A stretch of 17,432 nt of DNA, taken from a virus (taxonomy: Duplodnaviria > Heunggongvirae > Uroviricota > Caudoviricetes). Shown in pieces: positions 15,895-16,499 of the stretch (positions are counted from its first letter, which is position 1; every line of letters begins with the position of its first letter). The DNA lies in IMG/VR virus record IMGVR_UViG_2778261167_000008, positions 1 to 17,432 of that record. One strand, written 5' to 3'. Under the pieces are notes generated by a model. It was not told the DNA's origin, searched no databases, and saw only the letters and a list, made by a program, of their open reading frames with translations. A program made the translations under genes and the position numbers.

Positions 15895-16340
15895 TCTACT
15901 TGTTACTATTTTTATTGATGCTTGATTGTTATTTATCTGGGGTGAATTTCTGTTTATTAAACACTGAATTAATCATCACGTTCATTTTGTAGAGAGAATA
16001 GTAATGATTGTTTATAACTTCATTGTATCAGAATATATTGAAGAACAGATATTTTAAACATTTTAGGGGTAACTAAAAACAATCAAACTGTTAACCAATT
16101 TCATTAATAGCATTATGTATGCATGATTGTGATAATCATAATAAGGTTGTTGAGAAAAACTAATAAGATGAATAAAAGCTGATTCGCCTCGACCCCGAAA
16201 TTTTCCCGACGACGCCACGAAACCAATGGCAACTGATTGATCTTGAATGGTTACAATAGTAAGTATCAGGAGGTGTATTTTAGTGGTTTTTTGGTGTTAA
16301 CTTACTGAAGTATATAGATTATTACGGTTTGAGTTGTAAA

Positions 16341-16365
16341 CAGGAATCGTGTTCGGTCTCTTTTT
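16341..16365 (+). other. sdsR: Putative attR core: 3' terminal segment of sRNA gene sdsR (ryeB), including the terminator T-run
   Basis: CAGGAATCGTGTTCGGTCTCTTTTT matches my recollection of the SdsR 3' end with one mismatch. The 5' half of the terminator stem and the sRNA body are absent upstream, where the sequence is phage-like. Confidence 0.55.
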
Positions 16366-16499
16366 ATCTGTTAAAAGCCAGAAGCATTTCCTTCGCTGAC
16401 TTTATAGTCAACCATAACACACACTCTACTGTCTGAGTCCAGCGTTTTTTAACATTCTTGTTAAGATTATGTGATCTTTAGCGCGGGAGGAAAATATTG

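What the first reader, a model, noticed from the sequence alone, without database searches (positions are those of the whole stretch)
16160..16499. Prophage end sits in the sdsR (ryeB) / ryeA bidirectional sRNA locus next to pphA
Seen in sequence: 16341-16365 matches the 3' terminator end of SdsR, but the 5' half of its stem and the sRNA body are missing, and phage-like sequence lies upstream. Established knowledge: the last ~23 bp of ryeB, internal to antisense ryeA, has been reported as a recurrent integration site for phages and islands in Salmonella and E. coli, with ryeA altered on lysogenisation. Inference: this is the attR junction, the intact sdsR copy lies at the unseen attL, and 16160-16340 is the P arm.
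Basis: partly seen in the sequence, partly recalled or inferred. Interest (0 to 1): 0.55.

Follow-up and report, generated by a model that had tools for sequence, protein, structure and literature searches.

The report
Prophage right end in sdsR gene
This is the right-hand junction (attR) of a tailed prophage that inserted by site-specific recombination into the terminator of the E. coli small-RNA gene sdsR (ryeB), a documented phage integration hot spot, so it is a clean but ordinary example.

Summary
Window 16340-16367 (ACAGGAATCGTGTTCGGTCTCTTTTTAT) is identical to the last 26 nt of K-12 sdsR plus 2 bp. Homology to prophage-free E. coli starts exactly at 16340 and runs through pphA. The window has no sdsR body (Rfam 15 bits against a threshold of 38).

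Three complete E. coli genomes and one metagenome contig share this right end (97.5-98% identity). Each carries, beside yebY, a full sdsR, the same core, a P' arm and a lambda-type integrase and excisionase. Every relative of that integrase examined sits about 80 bp from a complete sdsR: 78 of 79 viral loci and 15 of 15 species-representative genomes across about ten Enterobacterales genera.

The site is split at this core in 235 of 5426 complete E. coli genomes. A different integrase, 50% identical, is present in 228 genomes; the window's type is in only 5.

The conserved P arm is 16194-16339, not 16160-16339. A g/a difference at 16351 places the crossover within 16340-16350.

The ryeA promoter and the first ~65 nt of ryeA stay at attR, and pphA is cut off from the sdsR promoter.

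The attL of this genome itself could not be fetched.

The phenomenon is already described (Balbontin 2008), so interest is low.

The parts
16340..16367 (+). att core at attR. It is identical to attB and comprises the last 26 nt of sdsR (16340-16365: terminator loop, 3' stem half and T-run) plus 2 bp.
   Evidence: Exact match to K-12 L001 1501-1528. Unique in the window, 0/200 shuffles. The same 28-mer, with one g/a difference, lies at the attL of strains 1506 and HCP8S3_I1.
16194..16339 (.). P arm of the phage attachment site. This is the part conserved among phages carrying this integrase lineage.
   Evidence: 93-94% identical to IMG/VR contigs L004 and L005 from 16194 up to the core, with no similarity further left. 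Those two contigs carry the integrase at their other end (L025, L035).
16194..16223 (+). Candidate arm-type integrase binding repeats: CCCGAAAT 16194-16201, CCCGACGA 16205-16212, CCACGAAAC 16215-16223.
   Evidence: Invariant or nearly so in the P-arm alignment. The same motif is repeated three times in tandem in the P' arm (CACGAAAT / CCACGAAAAT / ACTCGAAAT) across 78 loci, and occurs in both arms of the second E. coli phage lineage. The integrase has an Arm-DNA-binding domain, PF09003. Binding itself is inferred.
16342..16348 (+). Candidate 7-bp overlap (crossover) region, AGGAATC, which is the loop of the SdsR terminator hairpin.
   Evidence: Identity with attB starts at 16340 for three unrelated P arms. 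The host allele g at 16351 is kept at attR while attL carries the phage allele a. The exchange therefore lies within 16340-16350. The loop assignment comes from the fold. The exact overlap is inferred.
16351..16351 (+). Marker polymorphism within the core. It is g in E. coli attB and attR, and a in phage attP and attL.
   Evidence: 77 of 79 phage-side cores are ACAGGAATCGTATTCGG....
16340..16404 (-). The retained first ~65 nt of ryeA. The rest of ryeA, antisense to the sdsR body, is displaced to attL.
   Evidence: The ryeA start was placed at K-12 L001 ~1565 (window ~16404) from construct coordinates (+132 of sdsR = +10 of ryeA) and the promoter-mutation primer in PMC6610125, mapped with the offset. 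Rfam RyeA model matches lie at attL and attB and are absent from the window.
16411..16416 (-). ryeA sigma-70 promoter -10 hexamer (TATGGT on the minus strand). It now points into the prophage.
   Evidence: Primer PM_RyeAF in PMC6610125 replaces exactly this ACCATA(A) segment. Sequence read.
16368..16499 (+). Bacterial B' flank, the sdsR-pphA intergenic region.
   Evidence: 99.5% identical to K-12 over 16340-17432.
16500..17156 (+). pphA (serine/threonine phosphatase 1), now separated from the sdsR promoter by the prophage.
   Evidence: Annotated pphA lies under the match in all genomes. Read-through from the sdsR promoter is reported as its main source of transcription (PMC6610125).
1..16339 (+). 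Right arm of the prophage: tail terminator, major tail, tape measure 3857-6193, HNH 6810-7349, TipJ-like 8122-10662, tail spike 10720-12756, acyltransferase 12769-13908, tail-fibre assembly 14111-14383, acyltransferase 14689-15852 (minus strand).
   Evidence: ORFs. Pfam families on identical contigs. Similar to tail regions of E. coli prophages and of Enterobacter phage CobraSix at 82-87%.

Best explanation
Window 16194-16367 is the attR (P-O-B') junction of a ~45-kb temperate siphovirus-type prophage. A lambda-family tyrosine integrase inserted it into the Rho-independent terminator of the E. coli sRNA gene sdsR (ryeB), between yebY and pphA.

The phage attP carries its own copy of the last 26 nt of sdsR. 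Recombination within the first ~11 bp of the 28-bp core, probably in the 7-nt terminator loop AGGAATC, rebuilds a complete sdsR with a phage-derived 3' stem half at attL, next to int and xis. That end lies outside the window. The original bacterial 3' fragment is left at attR, which is what the window shows.

Shown here: the breakpoint, the core, the P-arm conservation, the int-sdsR linkage in relatives, and the recurrence of the split site.

Inferred: the arm-type sites, the exact overlap, the presence of attL and int in this genome, and the transcriptional effects. The ryeA promoter and the first ~65 nt of ryeA stay at attR and fire into the P arm. SdsR at attL loses its convergent antisense partner. 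pphA loses read-through from the sigma-S sdsR promoter.
For: Breakpoint: host homology begins exactly at 16340, and the 28-bp core is unique in the window.

Empty site: K-12 reads ...GGACCGAAT|core|CTGTTAAAAG.

Same junction with both ends seen: E. coli 1506 and HCP8S3_I1 have yebY, full sdsR (Rfam 116 bits in 1506), core with a, P' arm, int, xis ... P arm, core with g, pphA.

L091 is 97.5% identical to window 10636-16370. It has attL with a full sdsR (112 bits) and a 361-aa Int with an Arm-DNA-binding domain beside yebY.

Two IMG/VR prophages of 44.3 and 47.6 kb have the window's P arm at one end and the Int at the other.

The core lies ~81 bp (80-83) beyond the int stop codon in all 79 core-bearing loci out of 80 viral loci. 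It is preceded by the sdsR body in 78 of those 79.

15 of 15 species-representative genomes with this Int (65-95% identity; Enterobacter, Citrobacter, Leclercia, Lelliottia, Kluyvera, Siccibacter, Mixta, Pantoea and others) have a complete SdsR beside int.

The Int is 40% identical to HK022 Int.

The site is split at the core in 235 of 5426 E. coli genomes. The two pieces overlap by about 27-32 bp, spanning the core.

The SdsR fold is unchanged at attL, -32.9 kcal/mol in both.

Sequence 100% identical to window 1-10473 continues upstream, in a 230-kb contig, into head, portal, terminase-size and lysis genes, so the element is not a stub.
Against: The attL of this genome was not seen. Three E. 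coli contigs are each 100% identical to a part of the window: L006 to 1-10473, L089 and L090 to 4689-17432. They are long enough to contain attL, but only 10 kb around window genes could be fetched.

The closest complete-genome relatives (1506, HCP8S3_I1) are IS1-disrupted remnants with different baseplate-type tail genes. The int/att module and the window's tail module are therefore linked only through L091, L004/L025 and L005/L035.

Integrase binding sites, the overlap position and all transcriptional consequences are predictions. The original description (Balbontin 2008) could not be read.
Confidence: 0.92

Rival explanations
1. The junction is genuine, but in this genome the element is a defective remnant. 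Its left end (attL, int, possibly sdsR itself) has been deleted or rearranged, so no intact sdsR copy exists and the prophage cannot excise.
For: The complete-genome relatives sharing this attR are IS1-truncated remnants. L091 has an internal deletion joining the tail spike to recT. L093 lacks window 4198-12710. Decay is therefore common in this lineage.
Against: Even those decayed relatives all keep attL, the full sdsR and int-xis. Sequence 100% identical to window 1-10473 continues upstream through tail, head, portal and lysis genes without interruption. All 5426 E. coli genomes retain the sdsR-side sequence.
Confidence: 0.06
2. The 26-28 bp similarity to the sdsR terminator is a coincidence, or the product of illegitimate recombination or deletion next to pphA, and not a site-specific att core.
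For: None beyond the short length of the match.
Against: No match in 200 shuffles even with 3 mismatches. The breakpoint is identical in independent lineages with three different P arms. The core is duplicated at both ends in relatives. Linkage of this Int family with sdsR is strict across genera.
Confidence: 0.01
3. The attR fragment is kept because it still works as a transcription terminator, pairing with phage P-arm bases. It would insulate pphA from phage transcription, so it would be more than a passive scar.
For: The P-arm bases ACGGTTTG... pair with the core to give a hairpin followed by the T-run, -9.9 kcal/mol. These P-arm bases are invariant among related phages.
Against: The hairpin is much weaker than the native terminator (-15.8 kcal/mol) and was not called by the terminator scan. 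P-arm conservation is sufficiently explained by integrase and host-factor binding. This would add to the attR reading, not replace it.
Confidence: 0.1

Closest known systems
Phage PhiW104 and other elements at the ryeA/ryeB hot spot of Salmonella enterica (Balbontin et al. 2008, J Bacteriol 190:4075; summarised in PMC7380047 and PMC3603311)
   Same: The attachment site lies in the last ~23 bp of ryeB/sdsR, internal to antisense ryeA. Lysogeny separates ryeA from its promoter, and less RyeA with more RyeB was reported. Here the core is the last 26 nt of sdsR plus 2 bp, and the ryeA promoter is likewise left at attR.
   Different: The host is E. coli. The phage is a CobraSix-like siphovirus with an int/att module typical of Citrobacter and Enterobacter. 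The identity of its integrase to that of PhiW104 was not tested because no PhiW104 sequence was available. Salmonella integrases in the search were ~55% identical.
Lambda / HK022 integrase-attP system
   Same: The Int has an N-terminal arm-binding domain (PF09003), a central domain and a catalytic domain, and is 40% identical to HK022 Int. Prophage order is int-xis at attL and tail genes at attR. There are two to three repeats in the P arm and three tandem repeats in the P' arm.
   Different: The target is an sRNA terminator hairpin, not the gal-bio intergenic attB. The arm repeat is C(A/C/T)CGAAA-like. No IHF, Xis or Fis sites were tested.
Integrases that target the 3' part of tRNA/tmRNA genes and carry a replacement 3' end in attP (Williams 2002, cited in PMC3603311)
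   Same: The crossover lies in or next to a 7-nt loop flanked by a symmetric stem. The phage supplies a substitute 3' end so the RNA gene stays intact at attL.
   Different: The RNA is a regulatory sRNA with an overlapping antisense gene. Integration is therefore not neutral: the antisense ryeA and downstream pphA are uncoupled.
The common E. coli occupant of the same site: a lambdoid prophage with ralR/ralA, recET and a 358-aa Int (for example NZ_AP026092.1)
   Same: Same core, same orientation (int beside yebY-sdsR, tail fibres beside pphA), same g/a pattern, similar arm repeats.
   Different: Its Int is only 50% identical and its P and P' arms are unrelated in sequence. It is present in 228 of 5426 genomes, against 5 for the window's Int type.

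Membership tests
SdsR/RyeB sRNA gene (Rfam RF00111) | Full-length match to the covariance model at or above the gathering score of 38 bits | tested here: not met
   No gathering hit in the window; 15 bits, E=9.1 at 16299-16365. Real copies score 106-118 bits. Only the last 26 nt are present.
SraC/RyeA sRNA gene (Rfam RF00101) | Match to the 145-nt model at or above 37 bits | tested here: not met
   No hit in the window. Hits of 129-179 bits at attB and attL loci. Only the promoter and ~65 nt of the 5' end remain.
Prophage attR of a lambda-type tyrosine integrase | Host homology breaks exactly at a short core shared with the empty site | tested here: met
   Break at 16340; core 16340-16367 identical to K-12.
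Prophage attR of a lambda-type tyrosine integrase | Second direct copy of the core at the other prophage end, adjacent to an integrase gene | not testable with these tools
The feature is met in close relatives: 1506, HCP8S3_I1, L091, and the contig pairs L004/L025 and L005/L035.
Prophage attR of a lambda-type tyrosine integrase | Conserved phage arm with repeated arm-type sites bound by an Int that has an arm-binding domain | tested here: inconclusive
   The P arm 16194-16339 is conserved at 93-98% among phages with this Int. C(A/C/T)CGAAA repeats occur in the P and P' arms. PF09003 is present in the Int of relatives. No binding data exist.
ryeB/sdsR insertion hot spot (Balbontin 2008) | Attachment core lies within the last ~23 bp of ryeB, internal to ryeA | tested here: met
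   The core covers sdsR +77 to +102, and ryeA nt ~38-65 on the opposite strand.
ryeB/sdsR insertion hot spot (Balbontin 2008) | Recurrent, independent occupation of the site by different elements | tested here: met
   235 of 5426 E. coli genomes are split at the core. Two Int lineages 50% identical are present, in 5 and 228 genomes. The same linkage occurs in about ten other genera.

The most novel reading that the evidence does not exclude
Integration rewires a three-part host circuit and may couple a phage conversion gene to it. The sigma-70 ryeA promoter left at attR (-10 at 16411-16416, start ~16404) would make a chimeric RNA: 65 nt of RyeA fused to P-arm sequence.

This RNA keeps 26-28 nt of complementarity to the SdsR 3' end. 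With no predicted intrinsic terminator in its path, it could read 550 nt into the minus-strand acyltransferase gene (15852-14689).

Meanwhile SdsR at attL would escape RyeA and convergent-promoter interference, and pphA would lose its sigma-S-dependent read-through transcription. Lysogeny would then change stationary-phase sRNA regulation, phosphatase expression and possibly O-antigen modification in a single step.
Probability: 0.15. Interest if true: 0.45.

Novelty: new member of a known kind. Interest (0 to 1): 0.2.

Why it matters
The finding correctly marks a prophage boundary and identifies the integration target. This helps with annotation: the sdsR fragment at 16340-16365 should not be called an sRNA gene, and the real sdsR lies at the other end of the prophage.

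It also shows that E. coli uses the same sRNA-terminator hot spot described for Salmonella. About 4.3% of complete E. coli genomes have the site occupied, by two integrase lineages. One integrase family is strictly tied to sdsR across many Enterobacterales genera.

The biologically interesting part is still untested. Lysogeny at this site necessarily separates SdsR from its antisense RNA RyeA, and pphA from the sdsR promoter that normally drives it. Such lysogens are therefore natural regulatory mutants of that circuit.

Tried and rejected
(1) Rfam at gathering threshold on the whole window found nothing. The permissive search gave only noise-level hits apart from the truncated SdsR match.

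(2) I tried to read Balbontin et al. 2008 (PMC2395037), but it is not held. I relied on secondary descriptions.

(3) I tried to reach this genome's attL. Look-ups of window proteins returned E. coli contigs each 100% identical to a part of the window: L006 and L007 to window 1-10473, L089 and L090 to 4689-17432. Only 10 kb of flank is returned.

(4) No complete E. coli genome holds more than 57% of the window at 87% identity. The best phage record is Enterobacter phage CobraSix, 41% coverage at 82% identity. The prophage as a whole is therefore not in those collections.

(5) I considered whether a full sdsR lies just upstream of 16341. This is rejected by alignment and by Rfam.

(6) I considered whether the 51-aa ORF at 16063-16218 (minus strand) is a gene. 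There is no support: it spans the boundary between non-conserved sequence and the P arm, and I did not pursue it.

(7) The simple promoter scan did not call the ryeA promoter. Its position rests on the published mutagenesis primer.

Full report
**Observation**

Window 16340-16367 reads ACAGGAATCGTGTTCGGTCTCTTTTTAT. It occurs once in the window even with three mismatches allowed, and never in 200 shuffles.

In a K-12 MG1655 record the yebY-pphA intergenic region reads ...CCCTGGACCGAAT|ACAGGAATCGTGTTCGGTCTCTTTTTAT|CTGTTAAAAGCC.... Window 16340-17432 aligns to it at 99.5% identity, starting exactly at 16340. All 5426 complete E. coli genomes match the window from 16340 onward (16338 in a few), through pphA.

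Choi et al. give the sdsR start and 3' ends at +100 to +102 (PMC6610125). On that numbering the core covers sdsR +77 to +102, the last 26 nt: terminator loop, 3' stem half and T-run. Two further base pairs complete the core.

Upstream of 16340 the window reads GAGTTGTAA where K-12 has the 5' stem half GGACCGAAT. Rfam finds no SdsR or RyeA in the window at gathering score. The permissive search returns a 15-bit, E=9.1 fragment, whereas genuine copies score 106-118 bits.

**What lies upstream**

Window 1-16339 is the right arm of a tailed prophage. It encodes a tail terminator, an Ig-domain major tail protein, a tape measure, an HNH protein, an NlpC/P60 protein, a TipJ-like protein, a tail spike, an acyltransferase, a tail-fibre assembly protein and a second, oppositely oriented acyltransferase.

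The tail genes are 82-87% identical to E. coli prophages at other loci and to Enterobacter phage CobraSix.

E. coli draft contigs are each 100% identical to a part of the window: L006 and L007 to 1-10473, L089 and L090 to 4689-17432. In L006 the sequence continues upstream into head, portal and lysis genes. The element is therefore not a short stub.

**Is it an att junction?**

Three complete E. coli genomes (1506, HCP8S3_I1, MSB1_1D) share window 14118-17432 at 98% identity, including the junction.

In 1506 and HCP8S3_I1 the other boundary was read. It lies right after yebY and consists of a full-length sdsR (Rfam 116 bits in 1506), then the core ACAGGAATCGTaTTCGGTCTCTTTTTAT. About 80 bp of phage arm follow, and then a 361-aa tyrosine integrase and an excisionase. 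MSB1_1D has the same integrase DNA about 10 kb upstream of the junction.

A 731-kb metagenome contig from a non-E. coli host (L091) is 97.5% identical to window 10636-16370. It carries both ends of an internally deleted copy: P arm-core-host on one side, and yebY-sdsR (112 bits)-core-P' arm-Int-Exc on the other.

Two IMG/VR prophage contigs (44.3 and 47.6 kb) carry the window's P arm joined to the core at one end and the same integrase, 98% identical, at the other.

In 80 viral loci fetched with that integrase, 79 contain the core, ~81 bp (80-83) beyond the int stop codon. In 78 of the 79 the core is preceded by the sdsR body. The exception, L071, has a different phage arm there and looks like an attP or a tandem junction.

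All 15 species-representative genomes with a 65-95% identical integrase have a complete SdsR beside int. They span Enterobacter, Citrobacter, Leclercia, Lelliottia, Kluyvera, Huaxiibacter, Silvania, Siccibacter, Mixta and Pantoea. The integrase family and the sdsR target are therefore strictly linked.

**Anatomy**

- It contains CCCGAAAT, CCCGACGA and CCACGAAAC at 16194-16223.
- The P' arm of relatives contains three tandem copies, CACGAAAT, CCACGAAAAT and ACTCGAAAT, conserved across 78 loci.
- The integrase has the lambda arm-binding domain PF09003 and is 40% identical to HK022 Int.

The lambda-like layout of arm sites is an inference from these repeats.

E. coli attB and attR carry g at 16351. 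Phage-side cores, and attL in E. coli lysogens, carry a. Identity with attB begins at 16340 for three unrelated P arms. Strand exchange must therefore occur within 16340-16350.

The 7-nt loop AGGAATC (16342-16348) of the terminator hairpin, flanked by the symmetric stem, is the natural candidate for the overlap region. This parallels integrases that target tRNA anticodon loops. It is inferred, not shown.

The rebuilt SdsR at attL folds as well as the native one, -32.9 kcal/mol in both. Its stem has a U-A pair where E. coli has U-G.

**Recurrence**

A 260-bp probe spanning the empty K-12 site is uninterrupted in 5191 of 5426 complete E. coli genomes. It is split in 235 (4.3%). The two pieces overlap by about 27-32 bp, spanning the core.

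Two integrase lineages are present. A 358-aa Int, 50% identical, is found in 228 genomes. Where examined, it sits beside yebY-sdsR on a lambdoid prophage with ralR/ralA and recET. The window's lineage is found in only 5 genomes. Together these roughly equal the 235 split sites, although the overlap was not checked genome by genome.

The window's Int/att module is mostly annotated from Citrobacter. In E. coli it is the rare occupant.

**Consequences (inferred from sequence and published work)**

The published ryeA promoter mutation replaces ACCATA(A), which is window 16411-16416. From the construct coordinates, the ryeA start maps to about 16404 on the minus strand.

The ryeA promoter and the first ~65 nt of ryeA therefore remain at attR and point into the P arm. 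The part of ryeA antisense to the sdsR body moves about 45 kb away to attL.

No intrinsic terminator is predicted on the minus strand between 16404 and the acyltransferase start codon at 15852. That gene does have its own promoter-like site at 15894-15867.

[quoted passage not shown] In this lysogen both couplings are physically broken. For Salmonella phage PhiW104, decreased ryeA and increased ryeB expression on lysogeny has been reported (PMC7380047).

**Comparison and verdict**

This is the phenomenon described by Balbontin et al. 2008 for Salmonella (cited), seen here in E. coli with a different phage. The mechanism is the classical lambda-type integration into the 3' end of an RNA gene.

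The caveat is that attL of this particular genome was not retrievable.

Novelty is that of a new member of a known kind, and interest is low. The untested regulatory rewiring of SdsR, RyeA and pphA, and possible read-through into the acyltransferase gene, is the only part that could raise it.

Noticed in passing
window 12769-13908 (+) and 14689-15852 (-): Two Acyl_transf_3 (PF01757) genes flank the tail-fibre assembly gene just after the tail spike (10720-12756). GC is 0.28-0.33, against 0.45-0.49 in the host flank. They look like O-antigen-modifying lysogenic-conversion genes. The second is the last gene before attR and has its own promoter-like site (15894-15867, minus strand) and a terminator-like site (14681-14655).
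   Followed up: partly
window 6810-7349 (+): An HNH_3 endonuclease ORF (179 aa) sits inside the tail-gene cluster, between the tape-measure-associated genes and the NlpC/P60 and TipJ-like genes (Pfam).
   Followed up: no
L093 (Logan SRR32936746_169) against window 4197/12711: One assembly carries the same prophage end with a clean internal deletion of window 4198-12710, from inside the tape measure gene to just before the first acyltransferase. The flanks are 100% identical.
   Followed up: no
L071 4160-4400 (IMGVR_UViG_2065487013_000003, 70.9 kb): This is the only integrase-linked core not preceded by sdsR. A different phage arm with CACGA(A/T)A repeats adjoins the core instead. It suggests an intact attP or a tandem-prophage junction with a second P-arm type.
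   Followed up: partly
window 16316-16365 (+): P-arm bases (ACGGTTTG...) pair with the core to form a weaker substitute hairpin before the T-run, -9.9 against -15.8 kcal/mol for the native SdsR terminator. These bases are invariant among related phages.
   Followed up: partly
L007 and L008 against window 1-30: Two independent assemblies (ENA k113_112513, Logan SRR24523593_148) have contigs that begin within 30 bp of the window's first base, while the NCBI contig L006 runs through. This hints at a repeat or coverage break at that point of the prophage.
   Followed up: no
L094 4712-4890 (E. coli 27_141091, the other prophage lineage at the sdsR site): The common E. coli occupant of this site carries the RalR/RalA type I toxin-antitoxin (Rfam RalA 219 bits) and recET close to int, a Rac-like early region.
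   Followed up: no
cluster of P0121 (integrase of E. coli strain 1506, a close relative): The exact integrase protein found in E. coli strain 1506 is on 269 contigs, named almost entirely from the Citrobacter freundii complex. This points to recent cross-genus movement of the int/att module into E. coli.
   Followed up: partly
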